A DNA stretch of 64,000 nucleotides from Patescibacteria group bacterium. Lineage in GTDB: Bacteria; Patescibacteriota; Patescibacteriia; JACRDY01. The position numbers were made by a program, and so were the translations under genes. Where the stretch lies: positions 23,748-87,747 of the forward strand of contig JBAZLA010000004.1 of assembly GCA_041650515.1 (NCBI GenBank), written 5' to 3'. Within the stretch, counting starts at the first letter, position 1. Each line of letters begins with the position of its first letter. The notes below the pieces were generated by a model. The model searched no databases and had not been told where the DNA came from. It saw nothing but the letters and a program-made list of their open reading frames with translations. Below, in pieces: positions 3,442-64,000 of this stretch.

Positions 3442-4626
3442 TTAATTCTGATACTTATCTTTTAACAAAATGTAAGGACATAAACTTTTACACCGACCGC
3501 ATTCATCAGCCGAAATCTTTTTCACGTCCGAAAACAATCCTTGAGAGACAATGCAAGTACTATATTTACCCCGTAAATGATTGACCTCTTCTTCCAAAGG
3601 TAATTTATGAGAAAACTTAGCAATATTAACACTATGTGCAGCTATTCTAGCGGCTTTGTAGCCTTCAACTACATTGTCTAAACTGGGGACTCCACCGGTA
3701 TGTTCTGATCTAGTCACGGAAACAATCATATGGGCATATCCCCTATAAGCCATATAAGCGCTACCTATGGCTGAAGCGATATGATCTTCGCCGCTAGCTG
3801 CATCTGTTGTAACTGGGCCTAGTGGTATTATAGGCGTCTGTTGTTTAAAAAATAACTTACAAAAACCATCTATTTTATCAAGAGAAGCGTGAGACACGCC
3901 TTCACGTACCACCTTCAACCCTTTTTTATTTGCGGCTTTAATATATTTTTCTTGCAATTTAAATTCTTCTAACGCAATCTCATCTAAACATTCACTTGCT
4001 GTTGCCCCTCTGAATGTTAAAGCCAAACTGACTGCTACGTCGTATCTTTTTAATACACTAATTATTCTATCAAAATATATCGAGGGTACGCTTGTATCAC
4101 GATTATTTATATACATATCTTTTATTACGCACGCCCCGCCCCTGCTAGTGACCGGCACTAGCCTTTTCCTCTTGGCTTTCTCATAAAGTTTTTTTGTAGC
4201 CGTAGGATGCAACACCATTAGTGAAACCCTAGCTTTGGCCTGATTCTCAATTTCTTTTAAAAAATTTTCGGGGCTTATACCTTTTTTGTCATCAAAGCAG
4301 GAATACACAGGGACAGTCGCAACCGGTCCATCAAAAATTTTAATTATGCCTTTATATAAAGGATTTGCTAATTGAACTGTACTTAAATCATAAATGACAT
4401 CCGGTCTAGTTTTTAATTTTACCAAAGCCCTTACTTTGTCCAATTCCCCCTGATAGTTGACGCTTTCGTTTAAACCTATTTGAGTACCAACTTTTATCAA
4501 GGAATTATGACCGATATAAACATCCTGTTTTCTACCATTCAAAATTATACCCCGTTTACTTTTTAATAAATGATTCAGCTGACTTTTACTCAAAATGTTT
4601 AATCTGATTTCTTCAATGCTATGCAT
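3442..4626 (-). CDS. ThiC-family protein (phosphomethylpyrimidine synthase-like radical SAM enzyme)
   Basis: 394 aa. The core GPVTTDAASGEDHIASAIGSAYMAYRGYAHMIVSVTRSEH matches the ThiC signature GPLxTDxAPGYDHITSAIGAA. The C-terminal C-x2-C-x4-C motif (CGRCKSLCP) is a ThiC-type cluster ligand. No TPP riboswitch is recognisable upstream. Confidence 0.65.
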   Translation of the reverse strand: MHSIEEIRLNILSKSQLNHLLKSKRGIILNGRKQDVYIGHNSLIKVGTQIGLNESVNYQGELDKVRALVKLKTRPDVIYDLSTVQLANPLYKGIIKIFDGPVATVPVYSCFDDKKGISPENFLKEIENQAKARVSLMVLHPTATKKLYEKAKRKRLVPVTSRGGACVIKDMYINNRDTSVPSIYFDRIISVLKRYDVAVSLALTFRGATASECLDEIALEEFKLQEKYIKAANKKGLKVVREGVSHASLDKIDGFCKLFFKQQTPIIPLGPVTTDAASGEDHIASAIGSAYMAYRGYAHMIVSVTRSEHTGGVPSLDNVVEGYKAARIAAHSVNIAKFSHKLPLEEEVNHLRGKYSTCIVSQGLFSDVKKISADECGRCKSLCPYILLKDKYQN

Positions 4627-4704
4627 ATAATATAAATTTACCTCTATTATTAACTATCAAATTTTAGCATATTCAGTAACTTAGTTCTAGCGTCATTCCC
4701 GCCT

Positions 4705-4740
4705 ACATAAAAAACCCCTTAAAATAAAGAGGTTTTTTAC
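4705..4740 (-). terminator. Hairpin + T-run terminating the minus-strand tRNA/tRNA-like RNA cluster
   Basis: Hairpin aacccctt-aaaataa-agaggtt with U-runs on both strands, located 3' of the RNA cluster on the minus strand. Confidence 0.4.
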
Positions 4741-4843
4741 AATGGGCCGGCCGGCCCGCCTCCGTCCGCAACGGCGGATTACGACGGGTAAAGATTCTAC
4801 CTCGGCGCTTTGCGCCTCGCTTCTGCCCGTATAAATCCCTCCA
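4741..4843 (-). repeat. GC-rich tRNA-like unit C ending in a copy of the tRNA-Tyr 3' terminus (..CCGGCCCA)
   Basis: 103-nt GC-rich block in an AT-rich genome. The minus-strand 3' end GGGCCGGCCGGCCCA repeats the last 8 nt of tRNA-Tyr. Internal stem-loops: gcgaggcgc-aaa-gcgccgagg and ccgccgttgcggacgg. Confidence 0.3.
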
Positions 4844-4881
4844 AATGAAAAAATCCTGCCAAAAAGCAAGATTTTTTCATT
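4844..4881 (-). repeat. AT-rich spacer hairpin between tRNA-like units
   Basis: aatgaaaaaatcctgc caaaaa gcaagattttttcatt: near-perfect 15-bp stem. Confidence 0.5.
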
Positions 4882-4957
4882 TGGGCCGGGAGGGATTCAC
4901 CTCGCTCCGCTCGCCCTGGGTCCGCCCGCGGCGGACCCGTGCAAATCCCACATCCAG
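4882..4957 (-). ncRNA. tRNA-like unit A (tmRNA-like 5' motif; 3' end identical to the last 13 nt of tRNA-Tyr)
   Basis: Minus strand reads GAUUCUGGAUGUGGGAUUUGCAC-GGGUCCGCC-GCG-GGCGGACCC-AGGGCGAGCGGAGCGAGGUGAAUCCCUCCCGGCCCA. The perfect 9-bp GC hairpin is shared with unit B (39621-39645). Its 3' end CCCTCCCGGCCCA equals the tRNA-Tyr T-stem/acceptor 3' end. GAUUCUGGAU and GGGAUUUGC resemble the E. coli tmRNA 5' region (quoted from memory). Confidence 0.3.
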
Positions 4958-4998
4958 AATCAAAAAATTCTTAGACAAATACTAAGAATTTTTTGATA
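4958..4998 (-). repeat. Perfect 16-bp AT hairpin between tRNA-Tyr and unit A
   Basis: atcaaaaaattcttag-acaaata-ctaagaattttttgat. Confidence 0.6.
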
Positions 4999-5081
4999 TG
5001 GGCCGGGAGGGATTTGCACCCCCGAAGGCGTAAGCCAGCTGATTTACAGTCAGCCCCGTTTGACTGCTTCGGTACCGACCC
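4999..5081 (-). tRNA. tRNA-Tyr (anticodon GTA), type II long variable arm, CCA not encoded
   Basis: Minus strand: GGGTCGG UA CCGAAGCAGUCAAACGG G GCUGA CUGUAAA UCAGC UGGCUUACGCCUUC GGGGG UGCAAAU CCCUC CCGGCCC A. Acceptor 7 bp (one G.U). Anticodon stem 5 bp with a U-GUA-A loop. Long variable arm and T-arm present. Confidence 0.8.
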
Positions 5082-5082
5082 G

Positions 5083-5158
5083 TGGAGCCGCCACCGGGAA
5101 TCGAACCCGGGACCCCATCCTTACCATGGATGTGCTCTACCAACTGAGCTACAGCGGC
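5083..5158 (-). tRNA. tRNA-Thr (anticodon GGT), CCA encoded
   Basis: Minus strand: GCCGCUG UA GCUC AGUUGGUA GAGC A CAUCC AUGGUAA GGAUG GGGUC CCGGG UUCGAUU CCCGG UGGCGGC U CCA. Canonical cloverleaf, 1 nt upstream of tRNA-Tyr. Confidence 0.9.
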
Positions 5159-5172
5159 AAATCTATAAAAAT

Positions 5173-6066
5173 TTAGCTTAACTGATCAAGCCGATCTTGA
5201 AACTCGGCGAGCTTATGGTTATCTTGATTAACCGAACATAATTTCTGGAAAGTCTCTTCAGCTAATTCTTTCTTGTGCAGTATTATACTTAAATCTAAGA
5301 GAAGGTCAAGATAACGCGGATTATTTGGTTCTAGGCCAACCGCTTTCTGTAAACAATCTACTGCCTTTTCCTCTTCGCTGGTTCCCCGATAAACCTCAGC
5401 TAAATCAGCATAATGCACCGCTGCCTGCGAATCTAATTCAACCGATTTTAGCTGACAAGCTTTGGCTTTTTCTAAGTCACCCTGAGAAAAAGCAATATTA
5501 CCCAAATGCGAATAAGCTTCATAGCTATCAGCATTAAGCTTAATAATATATTCAAAAGTTTCTCGAGCTTCATCTAAACGTCCTTCCGCTAGATACAACT
5601 CACCCAACCCCTCGTAAGCTTCTAGATCCTTAGGATCAAGAGCAATCGCGTCAATAAATTTTTTCTCCGCCTCTTCGGGTTTATCCTTATCTAACAACGC
5701 TTCGCCTTCTTTGACCAAAACATCCGTTTTGGCATCTAAAGTTTGCCGCTCCTTAAGTGTCCGCGGCTCAATCTTTTTACGGTATCTACGTTCTAATTCT
5801 AAAGTTTGATAATAAACTTTTTTGGACAACTCGCTAGCTTTTTTACCGTATGGCTTAAGCCAGTCAAAAATTTTCTTACTTTTTGCCAAAACGTTACGCT
5901 GCAGTTTTTCTCTGACAATTCGATCCTTAGTCTTCTCATCTTTGGCCTCTGGTATTGTCTCAACATCGATATTTTTAAGCTGTGGGAATTTTTTAACAAC
6001 AATAAAAATTATAATAACTAAAGCAATAATAATTATTCCTAGGGCGATAATGTTATAAATCATCAT
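5173..6066 (-). CDS. Membrane-anchored TPR-repeat protein
   Basis: 297 aa. N-terminal TM helix (IIALGIIIIALVIIIFIVV). TPR-like repeats (AYEGLGELYLAEGRLDEA; AYSHLGNIAFSQGDLEKA; VHYADLAEVY). Confidence 0.55.
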   Translation of the reverse strand: MMIYNIIALGIIIIALVIIIFIVVKKFPQLKNIDVETIPEAKDEKTKDRIVREKLQRNVLAKSKKIFDWLKPYGKKASELSKKVYYQTLELERRYRKKIEPRTLKERQTLDAKTDVLVKEGEALLDKDKPEEAEKKFIDAIALDPKDLEAYEGLGELYLAEGRLDEARETFEYIIKLNADSYEAYSHLGNIAFSQGDLEKAKACQLKSVELDSQAAVHYADLAEVYRGTSEEEKAVDCLQKAVGLEPNNPRYLDLLLDLSIILHKKELAEETFQKLCSVNQDNHKLAEFQDRLDQLS

Positions 6067-12830: not shown

Positions 12831-14821
<1,991 letters not shown>

Positions 14822-14873
14822 ATATAATTTAAAATACACCAACTTTATCTTAAAAGCAACCAAAATATTAAAC

Positions 14874-15032
14874 CCGGCGGGGGTTTGGGGGTCGTTTGCG
14901 GCGCGGAGCCGCAGTCCCCGTCTGGCCGATACCGTCCAGGGGGCAAGGCGGGTTGATCCACATGAAAGTGAACAACACCCGCGCCTCAAACGCCCCCAAA
15001 GGTTTTTTGTTACTTTTTTGGCTCCAAAAAAG
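14874..15032. repeat. Structured GC-rich intergenic element R2 (copy 2 of 2)
   Basis: Outer stem tttgggggtcgtttgcggcgcgg / ccgcgcctcaaacgcccccaaa with compensatory a-u to g-c change relative to R1. Different inner hairpin. Conserved aaagtgaacaacac. Terminal AT hairpin gttacttttttgg..ccaaaaaagtaa. Confidence 0.55.
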
Positions 15033-15152
15033 TAAATGACCTTTGTGATATAAACCACCCGATCCTTCGTCCGCCTACGGCGGACTCAGGATGACAAATA
15101 AAAAAGAGGCCTATAAACCTCTTACTCTAAAATTTCACGTTTAAAACCACTG

Positions 15153-32478: not shown

Positions 32479-32775
32479 AGTTTTTAGATAATTTTTTTAT
32501 ATTATAACATATTAGTAAACTACCGTAAACGAAATCAAGCTTTATTTCAAATAAAAAACAACGATCTCAGGATAACTTTCAATCCGCAACGGCGGTCCCC
32601 AAGTGCCCGTACCACTGGTGGTATAGATCGAAAAACTGCCCGAAGTATGCAACCCCTAATCATAATCATGATAAATCAACTTGGTTATATAGTTAAAGGA
32701 CATAATTTTCCAAAACATATATTAGCGCTCTCATCATTCTACCACTTTTAATGGATAAACAAAAAAATCCGCTCC

Positions 32776-32945
32776 AAAGCTCCGAGGGTGGGACTCCTTC
32801 GCCCAGCAGCGAAGCCTGGGTTTGGCGGCGCCTTTGGCGCAACGCCAAACCCTTTGAATTCACCCCGCGACATAAGCAGTCATGTCGCTCTCTCCTCATT
32901 CGCCTCGCTCATTCAGAGAGGGTGAATTCAAACCCACAACCAAGT
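32776..32945 (-). pseudogene. tRNA-Asn 3'-half duplicate interrupted by a 133-nt structured insertion in the T-loop
   Basis: 32776-32796 (aaagctccgagggtgggactc) and 32930-32945 (aaacccacaaccaagt) are identical to the T-arm/acceptor part of the intact tRNA-Asn 200 nt away. The 133 nt between them (32797-32929) forms nested stems: 10-bp gaattcaccc..gggtgaattc, 7-bp gcgacat..atgtcgc, 7-bp tttggcg..cgccaaa and 6-bp cttcgc..gcgaag. Confidence 0.6.
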
Positions 32946-39549: not shown

Positions 39550-39660
39550 TGGCGGAGAGGGCGGGATTTCCGCCTCCCCTTCAACTCCCCCGATATGCAT
39601 CGGGGTCGCTCAGGGTCGTTGCCCTGGGTCCGCCCGCGGCGAACCCGTTCGAATCCCCTC
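39550..39660 (-). ncRNA. tRNA-like unit B (acceptor-like stem, tmRNA-like GGAUUCGAACGGG motif, encoded CCA), homologous to unit A
   Basis: Minus strand: GGAGGGG-AUUCGAACGGG-UUCGCC-GCG-GGCGGACCC-AGGGCAACGACCCUG-AGCGA-CCCCGAUGCAUAUCGGGG-GAGUUGAAGGGGA-GGCGGAAAUCCCGCC-CUCUCC-G-CCA. 5' GGAGGGG pairs with 3' CCUCUCC (one G.U), nearly identical to the tRNA-Ser acceptor. The 9-bp hairpin has a U.G where unit A has C.G. Confidence 0.35.
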
Positions 39661-39711
39661 CACATCTTAACGGAAATCTGCCGCCCACAAAAGTGGGCGT
39701 CAAATTTCCAT
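39661..39711 (-). repeat. Long AT/GC hairpin spacer between tRNA-Ser and unit B
   Basis: ggaaat-ttgac-gcccac-tttt-gtgggc-ggcag-atttcc. Confidence 0.5.
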
Positions 39712-63260: not shown

Positions 63261-64000
63261 TTATAGTTCTTCTTCCAACTTTGGCACTTCTTCTTTGCGA
63301 AAAAAACGACGCCGCAATGAAGTAATAAATAATAACATCTCTTCTGATTTTAGCAAGAGACTAACTAAAACAAAGACTATCAAGCCACCAAAAGCTGCCA
63401 AGCCCCCCTGAGCTAAAATACCCAAAAAGGTTCGCGTACCAGTAAATGGCTCAACAAAATATTTCAAAAACTGAATAACTAAAGCCATGGCTATAGTGGC
63501 AACCGAAATCTTAGCCACCGACCAAATAATATTAGCCTCATCCAGCCTGCCAACTTTAAATCGCAAGAAAATCCACAGCAAAGCCATATTAATGATCGAG
63601 GAAACGGAAAAGGCTAAGGCTAAACCAGCGACACCATAAACCTTTGCCAAACTTAAAGCTAAAACAATATTGACCACTGCTCCTACTAAACCAGTTACAA
63701 AAGGAATTAAAGTATTATGTAGAGCATAAAACCCTCGCGCCAAAAGCGGAATTAGACTCTGGGCAAATAAACTAATACTAAATAAAGCCAAGGCGTCAGC
63801 CGTGAGAATAGTGTCCTCCCAATCAAAATAGCCAGCACCCAAAATAACACGAACAATCTGCGCCCGTAGAACTAGAAACATTACTGACAAAGGAATAATA
63901 AAAAATAATATTTGGCGCACGGTTTGGGAAAAACTTTTTACAAAATTGTCTTTGTCACCGCTGGCGATAAAAGTCGAAAGCGTCGGGAAGGCGGCAATCG
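63261..64000 (-). CDS. murJ: Lipid II flippase MurJ-like protein, 5'-truncated at window edge
   Basis: The open frame continues to position 64000 without a stop (...IAAFPTLSTFIASGDKDNFVKSFSQTV-RQILFF...). The C-terminal region RGFYALHNTLIPF resembles the MurJ RAFYAxxDTxTP motif. Multiple TM helices. Confidence 0.5.
   Translation of the reverse strand, partial: IAAFPTLSTFIASGDKDNFVKSFSQTVRQILFFIIPLSVMFLVLRAQIVRVILGAGYFDWEDTILTADALALFSISLFAQSLIPLLARGFYALHNTLIPFVTGLVGAVVNIVLALSLAKVYGVAGLALAFSVSSIINMALLWIFLRFKVGRLDEANIIWSVAKISVATIAMALVIQFLKYFVEPFTGTRTFLGILAQGGLAAFGGLIVFVLVSLLLKSEEMLLFITSLRRRFFRKEEVPKLEEEL

What the first reader, a model, noticed from the sequence alone, without database searches (positions are those of the whole stretch)
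4741..5158. tRNA-Thr/tRNA-Tyr operon followed by two GC-rich tRNA-like units that reuse the tRNA-Tyr 3' terminus
On the minus strand the order is tRNA-Thr, tRNA-Tyr (1 nt apart), a perfect 16-bp AT hairpin, unit A, a 15-bp AT hairpin, unit C, then a terminator. Units A and C are strongly GC-rich in an AT-rich genome. Unit A ends with the same 13 nt as tRNA-Tyr (CCCTCCCGGCCCA) and unit C with the same 8 nt (CCGGCCCA). Unit A starts GAUUCUGGAUGUGGGAUUUGCAC, which resembles the E. coli tmRNA 5' region (GAUUCUGGAUUCGACGGGAUUUGCG, quoted from memory), and carries a perfect 9-bp hairpin GGGUCCGCC-GCG-GGCGGACCC. Possible explanations are co-transcribed tRNA-like or tmRNA-derived structured RNAs, remnants of a small non-coding element that integrates at tRNA 3' ends and duplicates the att core, or an unusual ssrA. 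None has been described as such.
Basis: partly seen in the sequence, partly recalled or inferred. Interest (0 to 1): 0.75.

Follow-up and report, generated by a model that had tools for sequence, protein, structure and literature searches.

The report
Repeated tRNA-end modules behind tRNA-Tyr
Behind the tRNA-Tyr gene of this small-genome (Patescibacteria) bacterium sit two GC-rich repeat modules built from one inverted and one direct copy of the tRNA's own 3' end; the same kind of module trails every other tRNA locus examined in this genome, has the architecture of the long-known but unexplained RtT repeats behind E. coli tRNA-Tyr, and is not a tmRNA.

Summary
On the minus strand, tRNA-Thr and tRNA-Tyr are followed by AT hairpin, unit A, AT hairpin, unit C and a final hairpin. 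Units A and C end in 16 and 8 nt of the tRNA-Tyr 3' end.

It also missed that tRNA-Ser, tRNA-Asn and tRNA-Gln of the same genome carry the same module, tailored to each tRNA. Units A and Ser share a near-identical GC core.

Relatives have 0, 1 or 4 units at the Tyr locus. The sequence after unit C matches (54/55) the 3' flank of an uninterrupted tRNA-Tyr in a relative, so 4998-4743 is inserted or duplicated DNA.

ARAGORN and Rfam find no tmRNA, tRNA or other family in the units. The closest known thing is E. coli RtT (rttR): same architecture, but no detectable sequence homology.

Best reading (about 0.5): recombination and repair scars with breakpoints in the T loop, read through as an RtT-like tail. 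Small GIY-YIG nuclease genes sit in this locus in relatives. Function is unproven.

This is a new variant of a known kind; interest 0.58.

The parts
5083..5158 (-). tRNA-Thr (GGT), CCA encoded
   Evidence: ARAGORN; Rfam tRNA 63.8 bits
4999..5081 (-). tRNA-Tyr (GTA), class II, no CCA encoded. Its T loop and 3' strand GTGCAAATCCCTCCCGGCCCA (5019-4999) is sense copy X1.
   Evidence: ARAGORN; Rfam 50.7 bits; sequence
4959..4997 (-). hp1: perfect 16-bp AT-rich hairpin with A-tract and U-tract (terminator-like)
   Evidence: the repeat finder I2; not called by the terminator scan
4939..4949 (-). Antisense-T segment of unit A, GGGATTTGCAC: perfect reverse complement of the tRNA-Tyr T loop and stem, 5019-5009
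   Evidence: the repeat finder I6; 11/11, p<0.001; the predicted fold pairs it with the tRNA
4918..4938 (-). Unit A core stem (P-stem) GGGTCCGCC-GCG-GGCGGACCC, followed by AGGGCGAG
   Evidence: I12; nearly identical core in the tRNA-Ser unit; covarying stem in the Asn unit
4882..4900 (-). X2: sense copy of the tRNA-Tyr 3' end at the end of unit A (GTG-AATCCCTCCCGGCCCA; 16 nt identical, 2-nt deletion in the T loop)
   Evidence: the repeat finder D2; sequence
4841..4884 (-). hp2: 19-nt-arm AT hairpin. The same hairpin follows CCGGCCCA in relatives L006 (48/52 identical) and L015 (47/52 identical).
   Evidence: I1
4829..4842 (-). Antisense-T segment of unit C, GGAGGGATTTATAC: complementary to AAATCCCTCC of the tRNA and to AATCCCTCC of unit A
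   Evidence: I9 and I11
4743..4828 (-). Unit C body: ACGGG...CCCGT stem, GGCGC-AAA-GCGCC and TCCGC-CGTT-GCGGA hairpins, an internal AATCC, and the end GGGCCGG-CCGGCCCA (X3, 4750-4743). Its 5' part is homologous to the units of L006 and L015 (ACGGGCAGRAGCG).
4700..4742 (-). Ancestral 3' flank of tRNA-Tyr: hairpin AAAAAACCTCTT-TATTTT-AAGGGGTTTTTT plus ATGTAGGC. It is 54/55 identical to the flank that directly follows an uninterrupted tRNA-Tyr in relative L011.
   Evidence: I5
39553..39710 (-). Same module behind tRNA-Ser (39797-39712). Parts: hairpin 39709-39672; antisense-T GGGGATTCGAAC 39658-39647; core GGGTTCGCC-GCG-GGCGGACCC-AGGGC 39646-39621; further hairpins; sense copy AATCCCGCCCTCTCCG 39568-39553, followed by CCA.
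   Evidence: no Rfam family
32775..32945 (-). Same module behind tRNA-Asn (33061-32990). Parts: diverged partial tRNA copy 32945-32916; hairpin; antisense GGGTGAATTCAAA 32865-32853 (13/13 complementary to that diverged copy, not to the tRNA); stem GGGTTTGGCG...CGCCAAACCC-AGG 32852-32815; sense copy GAGTCCCACCCTCGGAGCTTTG 32796-32775.
   Evidence: no Rfam family

Best explanation
Window 4998-4743 holds two stacked 'tRNA-tail modules'. It is not a gene for a tmRNA or a tRNA-like RNA.

Each module has four parts:
- an AT-rich terminator-like hairpin;
- an antisense copy of the T loop and T-stem 3' strand of the sense copy that precedes it;
- a GC-rich hairpin core (GGG-stem-CCC, then AGG);
- a sense copy of the tRNA 3' end, running from the middle of the T loop to the discriminator base.

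Shown here: the modules are inserted or duplicated DNA between tRNA-Tyr and its ancestral 3' flank. They belong to a family that trails all four tRNA loci examined in this genome, with ends tailored to each tRNA. Copy number differs between relatives and even between near-identical strains. The tRNA-derived part always begins in, or is interrupted in, the T loop.

Inferred: the modules are products of repeated break-and-repair or recombination at the T loop of tRNA genes.
- The breaks may come from the small GIY-YIG nucleases encoded in this very locus in several relatives. The analogy is phage SegB, which cuts tRNA genes at RAWTSGAAC, the antisense of the T loop.
- Repair against related tRNA-plus-terminator cassettes leaves the displaced old 3' end and its terminator downstream.
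- Snap-back (templated) synthesis and template switching at the hairpins create the inverted copies and keep them perfect.
- Unequal crossing-over between the direct repeats changes copy number.

At the RNA level, read-through past hp1 would give an RtT-like tail. In that tail the antisense segment can pair with the T arm (predicted), and the tRNA-like 3' ends could be trimmed by the tRNA 3'-processing enzymes. I take any RNA function to be secondary and unproven.
For: (1) Architecture and significance. The direct repeats X1, X2 and X3 and the inverted repeats are listed. Antisense segments are perfect over 9-15 nt in six units (p<=0.003 each).

(2) Insertion.
- The flank after unit C is 54/55 identical to the flank directly after tRNA-Tyr in L011. 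The end of the L006 unit, CCGGCTCACCA plus terminator, matches the tRNA-Tyr end plus terminator of L008 and L025 (37/44 and 40/45).
- Sites without units: L001, L008, L024, L010, L027.

(3) Family.
- The Ser and Asn units in the window and a Gln unit 8.5 kb beyond the window on the same contig have ends matched to their own tRNA.
- The core GGGTYCGCCGCGGGCGGACCCAGGGC is shared by the Tyr-A and Ser units.
- The core stem covaries in the Asn unit.

(4) Copy-number dynamics. L022 and L023 carry three identical 121-nt tandem units plus a fourth. L021, with an identical TPR protein, is 424 nt shorter.

(5) T-loop breakpoints or inserts.
- Junctions in the window: unit A GGTG|AATCC and the Ser unit GCGG|AAATCC.
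- GC inserts inside the T loop: Gln GGGGTTC[31 nt GC hairpins]GAATCC; L022 unit 4 GGTTCGGA[42 nt]ATCC; E. coli RtT GGTTCGAC[GC insert]TAATCC.
- Sources.

(6) Nuclease genes. GIY-YIG ORFs (85-100 aa, PF01541) lie inside the Thr-Tyr locus of L021-23, L026, L027 and L028, flanked by tRNA fragments with GC hairpins.

(7) Literature.
- SegB cuts inside tRNA genes at RAWTSGAAC and drives recombination-dependent tandem amplification of a tRNA-Tyr segment (PMC13096335).
- Hairpin-primed templated synthesis at breaks is an established repair outcome (abstract of PMC9303309).

(8) Hairpin modules are 90% or more identical between genomes whose adjacent TPR proteins are only about 50% identical. This points to exchange of tRNA-terminator cassettes.

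(9) The same design exists in E. coli RtT.
Against: - No GIY-YIG homologue, integrase or transposase was found in the 64-kb window. The nuclease link therefore rests on relatives and on analogy.
- The CPR GIY-YIG proteins consist of the catalytic domain only and match no phage SegB family in PHROGs.
- Break-repair alone does not explain why the same 26-nt GC core sits behind two different tRNAs, or why a streamlined genome keeps such tails at 4 of 4 loci. Both facts would fit a mobile module or a selected RNA.
- The covarying core stem and the conserved AGG after it could reflect selection on an RNA.
- No transcript data are available.
Confidence: 0.5

Rival explanations
1. The units are selected, structured small RNAs: RtT-like mimics of the tRNA 3' end. 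They would be co-transcribed with the tRNAs and released by tRNA-processing nucleases. They might then act as regulators or decoys, for example for enzymes or nucleases that recognise the T arm and acceptor end, or as modulators of tRNA maturation through the antisense-T pairing.
For: - The units are present at 4 of 4 tRNA loci of a streamlined genome.
- They always lie on the tRNA strand.
- The core stem keeps pairing through compensatory changes, and AGG is conserved after it.
- Each unit ends exactly at a tRNA-like 3' end and is followed by its own hairpin.
- The Ser unit ends in a 7+3-bp acceptor/T-like minihelix followed by an encoded CCA (read).
- Folding of read-through RNA predicts strong antisense:T-arm helices (z -5 to -9).
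- E. coli RtT RNA is a real processed transcript, reported to be linked to tyrT processing and to the stringent response (10.1101/2024.07.17.603846).
Against: - Close relatives lack units at the same locus.
- Unit interiors are not alignable between species, and copy number varies from 0 to 4.
- Single units fold no better than shuffles.
- Hairpin complementarity can be maintained by template switching without selection.
- No Rfam family matches and no expression data exist.
Confidence: 0.22
2. The units are miniature non-autonomous integrative elements that insert site-specifically at tRNA 3' ends or T loops and duplicate the att core. They would be mobilised in trans by an enzyme encoded elsewhere.
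For: - Direct repeats of the tRNA 3' end bound each insert.
- Relatives have empty sites, and the ancestral flank is preserved.
- The distal copy carries the original CCA in L006 and at the Ser locus, while the proximal tRNA end does not. This is expected if the element supplies a new 3' end.
- The same core lies behind two different tRNAs.
- Repeat lengths (16-22 nt and 36-48 nt) correspond to T-loop and anticodon-loop crossover classes of tRNA-targeting integrases (own knowledge; Williams 2002, not checked here).
Against: - The ends are tailored to each tRNA, including the inverted copy. A pre-formed attP would therefore be needed for every target.
- The inserts are only 117-200 bp.
- No integrase or transposase gene lies near any of the three window loci.
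- In L025 the CCA-bearing copy is the proximal one.
- There are no terminal inverted repeats.
Confidence: 0.18
3. The segment is a tmRNA-derived RNA or an unusual (two-piece or permuted) ssrA.
For: There is a local similarity between TGATTCTGGAT-G-TGGGATTTGC and the E. coli tmRNA 5' region. Only 2 of 500 shuffles score as high.
Against: - ARAGORN finds no tmRNA.
- Rfam tmRNA, alpha, beta and cyano tmRNA and tmRNA_permuted give nothing on the units at E<=10. The only weak hits (13-15 bits against a 47-bit threshold) lie on the true tRNAs.
- The units have no 5' acceptor strand, no G3:U70 pair and no intact T loop.
- Half of the match is the antisense of the T loop.
- The same module occurs behind Ser, Asn and Gln tRNAs.
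Confidence: 0.02
4. The units are non-conserved random spacer, or decaying tRNA pseudogenes of no further significance.
For: Related genomes without units exist, and unit interiors diverge fast.
Against: The design recurs at four tRNA loci and in at least four other genomes. Antisense segments are perfect, the core is shared, and hairpin modules are conserved.
Confidence: 0.08

Closest known systems
E. coli tyrT-operon distal 178-bp repeats / RtT RNA (rttR, Rfam RF00391)
   Same: - Both lie directly behind tRNA-Tyr genes and are tandemly repeated (one spacer copy and three distal copies in K-12).
- Each unit ends with the tRNA-Tyr 3' end (19 nt in E. coli, 16 and 8 nt here).
- Each contains an antisense segment (GGGGAAGGAT) that pairs with the T-stem and acceptor copy. 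This pairing is the closing helix of the Rfam consensus structure.
- Both have a GC-rich hairpin interior sitting in a T-loop position of a degenerate tRNA 3'-half copy (read).
- Both leave a free tRNA-like 3' tail.
   Different: - There is no detectable sequence or CM homology. RF00391 gives no hit at E<=10, and an nhmmer RtT profile reaches only E about 1. A Smith-Waterman z of 5.5 for unit A is inflated by the shared tRNA-derived end.
- The CPR units are shorter (about 80-105 nt against 130-178 nt).
- Their antisense segment matches the preceding copy across an AT hairpin better than it matches their own 3' end.
- They occur behind several different tRNAs and share a core between loci.
- CCA is mostly not encoded.
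attL/attR duplication of tRNA 3' ends by integrative elements (genomic islands, prophages)
   Same: The insert is bounded by direct repeats of the tRNA 3' end starting in the T loop or anticodon loop. The tRNA is restored at the proximal side, and the displaced original end with its flank lies at the distal side.
   Different: The inserts are 117-200 bp with no integrase. The ends, including an inverted copy, are tailored to each tRNA.
SegB (GIY-YIG) homing endonuclease in phage T4/T6 tRNA clusters
   Same: A small GIY-YIG gene is embedded between tRNA genes in relatives of this genome. SegB targets the T loop (RAWTSGAAC) and drives recombination-dependent tandem amplification of a tRNA-Tyr segment (PMC13096335; PMC2330249).
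   Different: The setting is a bacterial chromosome, not a phage. The CPR proteins are 85-100 aa, have the catalytic domain only, and have no PHROG match. The amplified units are truncated tRNA copies, not full genes. No such gene lies in this window.
tmRNA (ssrA), one-piece or permuted
   Same: There is a short 5' sequence resemblance and a tRNA-like 3' end.
   Different: No acceptor stem, no T loop, no tag reading frame call, and no model match.

Membership tests
RtT RNA (RF00391) | Located immediately downstream of a tRNA-Tyr gene on the same strand, in tandem copies | tested here: met
   Two units follow tRNA-Tyr on the minus strand. The E. coli layout was confirmed.
RtT RNA (RF00391) | The unit ends with a copy of the tRNA-Tyr 3' terminus | tested here: met
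   16 nt (unit A) and 8 nt (unit C) are identical to the tRNA-Tyr end. E. coli has 19 nt including CCA.
RtT RNA (RF00391) | Closing helix between an antisense segment and the T-stem/acceptor copy at the unit's own 3' end | tested here: inconclusive
   Only 6 bp (+3) in unit A and 5 bp in unit C, not significant on their own (p 0.16-0.66). E. coli has 10 bp. The antisense segment pairs better with the upstream copy.
RtT RNA (RF00391) | Match to the Rfam covariance model at or above 45 bits | tested here: not met
   No RtT hit at E<=10 on 4600-5250, nor on the Ser or Asn regions. There is none in L006, L015, L022 or L025 at the gathering threshold, while the four E. coli copies score 133-138 bits. 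nhmmer gives E about 1.
RtT RNA (RF00391) | Released as a discrete RNA from the tRNA operon transcript | not testable with these tools
   No transcript data are available.
tmRNA | Detected by ARAGORN tmRNA mode or by Rfam tmRNA models (RF00023, alpha, beta, cyano, permuted) | tested here: not met
tmRNA | Acceptor stem formed by the 5' and 3' ends, with G3:U70 and an intact T arm | tested here: not met
   No 5' strand complementary to CCGGCCC is present in unit A. The T loop carries a 2-nt deletion.
tRNA | Cloverleaf recognised by ARAGORN or Rfam RF00005 | tested here: not met
   Only the four true tRNAs are called in the window.
tRNA-targeting integrative element | Direct repeats of the tRNA 3' part flank the insert, and empty sites exist in relatives | tested here: met
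tRNA-targeting integrative element | Integrase or recombinase encoded in or next to the insert | tested here: not met
   Neighbours are TPR, TIM, an M16 peptidase, ClpB-like, ThiC-like, L10 and L12, sigma-70, T2SSE, a methyltransferase and a thioredoxin-like protein.
Group I intron in tRNA (known in Patescibacteria, PMC13011429) | Rfam Intron_gpI match, with insertion inside a tRNA that is split by it | tested here: not met
   No intron model hit. The tRNAs are intact, and the units are too short at 80-105 nt.

The most novel reading that the evidence does not exclude
The modules could be a previously unrecognised, widespread class of T-loop-directed elements or RNAs, an 'RtT-like superfamily' reaching from Patescibacteria to Enterobacteria. 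One version is small non-autonomous modules that copy themselves behind tRNA genes with target-templated ends. The other is selected tRNA-end mimic RNAs that act as decoys or immunity determinants against T-loop-cutting homing endonucleases or tRNA-targeting nucleases. Either version would also finally give E. coli RtT a rationale.
Probability: 0.2. Interest if true: 0.85.

Novelty: new variant of a known kind. Interest (0 to 1): 0.58.

Why it matters
The RtT repeats behind E. coli tyrT have been known for decades without a convincing origin or function.

Here the same design turns up in a very distant, genome-reduced lineage: an antisense T segment, a GC hairpin core and a tRNA 3'-end copy. 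It sits behind all four tRNA loci examined in this genome, with ends tailored to each tRNA, and copy number varies between strains. That turns a one-off curiosity into a comparative problem.

It points to the T loop of tRNA genes as a recurrent breakpoint, possibly through GIY-YIG nucleases. It also gives concrete predictions for transcript processing and nuclease specificity.

On the practical side, these tails explain GC-rich 'tRNA-like' blocks that annotation pipelines leave blank. They can also cause assembly collapse at tRNA loci.

Tried and rejected
- tmRNA and tRNA-like gene: ARAGORN and Rfam, at gathering thresholds and at E<=10, are negative.
- Other known ribozymes or sRNAs: only spurious miRNA-type hairpin hits.
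- Group I intron: no hit and wrong size.
- Sequence homology to RtT: the CM and nhmmer are negative. The Smith-Waterman signal is judged not independent of the tRNA-derived end.
- Phage or viral origin of the core: the 18-mer scan of viral contigs gave only chance hits in GC-rich coding DNA.
- The genome contigs pattern scan found only a relative without units (L001). Two of the four metagenome hits were chance (L004, L005).
- 'Anti-acceptor' idea for the L006 unit end: dropped once that end was recognised as the displaced tRNA 3' end with CCA.
- GIY-YIG gene in the window: not found.
- GC-rich block at 14870-15000: it lies inside an ORF with a DUF3795 domain, so it is probably coding.
- Literature searches found no description of such tails in Patescibacteria.
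Full report
**1. What is in the sequence**

On the minus strand the window carries tRNA-Thr(GGT) at 5158-5083 and, 1 nt later, tRNA-Tyr(GTA) at 5081-4999. Both are confirmed by ARAGORN and by the Rfam tRNA model (63.8 and 50.7 bits).

Downstream, in order:
- hp1, a perfect 16-bp AT hairpin (4997-4959);
- unit A (to 4882);
- hp2, a hairpin with 19-nt arms (4884-4841);
- unit C (to 4743);
- a final hairpin (4739-4708).

Unit A ends with 16 nt identical to the tRNA-Tyr end (AATCCCTCCCGGCCCA). Unit C ends with CCGGCCCA. The 9-bp GC hairpin is exact.

The units reach 60-80% GC in a window that averages 40%. One correction: the consensus terminator scan calls none of the hairpins.

**2.

Unit A begins with GGGATTTGCAC, the exact reverse complement of the tRNA-Tyr T loop and stem GTGCAAATCCC (I6). 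Unit C begins with GGAGGGATT(T), the reverse complement of the T-stem copy at the end of unit A and of the tRNA (I9, I11).

The layout is therefore: sense T, AT hairpin, antisense T, GC core, sense T, AT hairpin, antisense T, GC core, sense end.

The complementarity with the preceding sense copy is perfect over 9-15 nt in every unit examined (p<=0.003 each). Complementarity with the unit's own 3' end is only 5-8 nt.

RNA folding of a read-through transcript puts the T loop and T-stem 3' strand of tRNA-Tyr into an 11-bp helix with the antisense segment, stacked under hp1 (z = -5.2). The tRNA-Ser locus behaves the same way (z = -7.1). The whole tail has z = -9.4. Single units alone are unremarkable, with z about -1.

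**3. It is a family, not a one-off**

- tRNA-Ser (39797-39712) is followed by a hairpin and then GGGGATTCGAAC, the antisense of its own T loop. Next comes the core GGGTTCGCC-GCG-GGCGGACCC-AGGGC, which is nearly identical to the unit A core. More hairpins follow, then AATCCCGCCCTCTCCG, a copy of its own 3' end, followed by CCA.
- tRNA-Asn (33061-32990) is followed by a diverged partial copy of itself and a hairpin. Then comes an antisense segment that matches that diverged copy 13/13 rather than the tRNA. A covarying stem GGGTTTGGCG...CGCCAAACCC-AGG follows, and then a 22-nt copy of the tRNA end plus flank.
- tRNA-Gln lies about 8.5 kb beyond the window on the same contig. It is followed by a terminator hairpin and a T-arm/acceptor copy with 31 nt of GC hairpins inserted in the T loop.

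All four tRNA loci examined in this genome therefore carry such a tail. A motif scan finds the core only at tRNA loci.

**4. Relatives**

The organism is a Patescibacterium near Ca. Falkowbacteria. The best homologues of the adjacent TPR protein are only 50-58% identical. The gene order M16 peptidase, TIM, TPR, tRNA-Thr, tRNA-Tyr is conserved.

Behind tRNA-Tyr the relatives show:
- No unit: L001, L008, L024, L010, L027.
- One unit with the same 5' sequence as unit C (ACGGGCAGRAGCG): L006/L007 and L015. In L015 the antisense segment follows that tRNA's T-loop variant, GTGCGAATC paired with GATTCGCAC.
- One unit made of GC hairpins plus a 36-48-nt tRNA-Tyr 3' part: L011 and L025.
- Three identical 121-nt tandem units plus a fourth with a GC insert in the T loop: L022 and L023. 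L021, with an identical TPR protein, is 424 nt shorter and lacks tRNA-Tyr; this is either a deletion or an assembly collapse.

The flank after unit C is 54/55 identical to the flank directly after the uninterrupted tRNA-Tyr of L011. The end of the L006 unit plus its terminator matches the tRNA-Tyr end (with CCA) plus terminator of L008 and L025.

hp2 and another hairpin type are 90% or more identical between genomes whose proteins are only about 50% identical. Each unit's distal part therefore looks like the 3' end plus terminator of a former resident tRNA-Tyr gene. These cassettes appear to be exchanged between lineages.

**5. What it is not**

- tmRNA. There is no ARAGORN tmRNA and no Rfam tmRNA match on the units at E<=10. 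The quoted E. coli tmRNA string is correct, and the local match is nominally unusual (2 of 500 shuffles). But half of it is the antisense T loop, and the units have no acceptor stem.
- tRNA. The tRNA models do not call the units.
- Group I intron. Such introns are known in Patescibacteria tRNAs at position 35/36 (PMC13011429), but no intron model hits here.
- Integrase- or transposase-bearing element. The neighbours are housekeeping genes.
- Viral. The scan of viral contigs gave only chance hits.

**6. Closest known**

The E. coli K-12 region tyrT-tyrV-rttR was fetched as L020. Rfam RtT (RF00391) hits four copies at 133-138 bits.

Its consensus structure has a closing helix between GGGGAAGGAU and AUCCUUCCCC, that is, an antisense segment paired with the tRNA-like 3' end. 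It also has GC-rich internal hairpins and a free CACCACCA tail.

Reading the sequence, each E. coli unit is a degenerate tRNA-Tyr 3'-half copy. The antisense segment is inserted in the variable-arm region, and a GC-rich block is inserted in the T loop.

This is the same design as the Patescibacteria units. Sequence homology is not demonstrable:
- RF00391 does not hit any CPR unit.
- An nhmmer RtT profile reaches only E about 1.
- The Smith-Waterman z of 5.5 for unit A includes the tRNA-derived end.

The rtT RNA is described as a processing product of the tyrT operon with a suspected link to the stringent response. Its mode of action is unknown (10.1101/2024.07.17.603846).

**7. How it most likely arises and works**

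Shown:
- insertion relative to an ancestral flank;
- tailoring of both ends to each tRNA;
- a core shared between loci;
- copy-number polymorphism, including identical tandem copies;
- junctions or GC inserts located in the T loop;
- small GIY-YIG ORFs (85-100 aa, PF01541) inside the Thr-Tyr locus of six related contigs, flanked by tRNA fragments carrying the hairpin CCGCCGAATCGGCGG.

From the literature:
- The GIY-YIG homing endonuclease SegB cuts inside tRNA genes at RAWTSGAAC, the antisense of the T-loop consensus. It drives recombination-dependent tandem amplification of a segment containing tRNA-Tyr (PMC13096335; PMC2330249).
- Hairpin-primed templated synthesis at double-strand breaks generates inverted and direct templated insertions (abstract of PMC9303309).

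Inferred:
- breaks in the T loop of tRNA genes are repaired against related cassettes;
- each repair leaves the displaced old 3' end and its terminator behind;
- snap-back synthesis and template switching at the hairpins generate and homogenise the antisense segments, which would explain the 13/13 match to a diverged copy at the Asn locus;
- unequal crossing-over between the direct repeats changes copy number.

I put this at about 0.5.

Weak points:
- The window contains no GIY-YIG gene.
- The CPR proteins are not SegB-like by PHROGs or NCBIfam.
- Repair alone does not explain the shared core or the retention of tails at every locus in a reduced genome. Those facts keep two rivals alive: a selected RtT-like RNA (0.22) and a miniature mobile module (0.18).

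**8. Verdict**

This is a real, non-random feature. The tmRNA reading is rejected, and the 'att-core duplication' and 'co-transcribed tRNA-derived RNA' readings are partly right. It is best filed as a new variant of the RtT-type tRNA-operon tail, now seen as a multi-locus family in Patescibacteria. Function is unproven. Interest is moderate to high because it makes the old RtT puzzle comparative and testable.

Noticed in passing
window 39553-39710 and 32775-32945 (minus strand): tRNA-Ser and tRNA-Asn are followed by the same kind of module (antisense T, GC core, sense 3' copy). The Ser unit shares a 26-nt core with unit A and ends in a minihelix-like hairpin followed by an encoded CCA.
   Followed up: yes
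L031 679-880 (same contig as the window, about 8.5 kb beyond window position 64000): tRNA-Gln(CTG) is followed by a terminator hairpin and a T-arm/acceptor copy with two GC hairpins (TCCCCCTAACGGGGGA, CCACCCGTAGGGTGG) inserted exactly in the T loop, then a second hairpin.
   Followed up: partly
L011 3460-3655: A complete tRNA-Thr sits nested inside the anticodon stem-loop of another tRNA-Thr-like sequence. The nested tRNA is flanked by complementary GC-rich arms CCGCCTGCC and GGCGGGCAGG. This could be an interrupted pseudogene or an unusual insertion.
   Followed up: no
L022 3390-3455; L027 1113-1170 and 1313-1365; L010 3435-3490: 5' fragments of tRNA-Thr or tRNA-Tyr lie upstream of the intact genes, each fused to or interrupted by GC-rich hairpins. 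In L022 the insert is in the D loop. In L027 the hairpin CCGCCGAATCGGCGG replaces the D and anticodon arms.
   Followed up: partly
L021-L023 3611-3868; L026 2191-2484; L027 1362-1619; L028 1301-1603: Small GIY-YIG-only ORFs (85-100 aa) are inserted between or next to tRNA-Thr and tRNA-Tyr in several relatives. None was found in the 64-kb window.
   Followed up: partly
L021 versus L022, around 3940-4400: Two contigs with identical TPR protein differ by 424 nt. L021 lacks the intact tRNA-Tyr and three tandem units. This is either a real recombinational deletion or an assembly collapse across the repeats.
   Followed up: no
window 33074-33062 and 32990-32978: tRNA-Asn is bracketed by a 13-nt inverted repeat (AAGACGGCAAAGC and GCTTTGCCGTCTT) that would extend the acceptor stem, followed by a U run. 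It may be a processing stalk or a terminator.
   Followed up: no
window 5083-5085 versus 4999, 39712 and 39550-39552: tRNA-Thr encodes its CCA, while tRNA-Tyr, tRNA-Ser and tRNA-Asn do not. At the Ser locus the CCA follows the distal partial copy instead of the tRNA.
   Followed up: partly
window 14870-15000: A very GC-rich block (up to 78%) with hairpins lies inside ORF 14438-15058, which has a DUF3795 domain, next to a tRNA-guanine transglycosylase gene. It is probably coding, not an RNA gene.
   Followed up: partly
L001 (CAZZDA010000032.1): This MAG contig is labelled 'uncultured Gammaproteobacteria'. It nevertheless carries the adjacent tRNA-Thr(GGT) and tRNA-Tyr(GTA) pair (no spacer) and the same tRNA-Tyr 3' end (AATCCCTCCCGGCCCA) as the window. 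The taxonomic label may be wrong.
   Followed up: no
L006 420-560: Downstream of the L006 unit lie further short structured GC-rich patches in AT-rich DNA, for example CCCGATTTATCGGG and GTGCTTTGGCGGATTTCATCGGCG...GCCCAGCTTTGGCCCAGG. Their nature is unknown.
   Followed up: no
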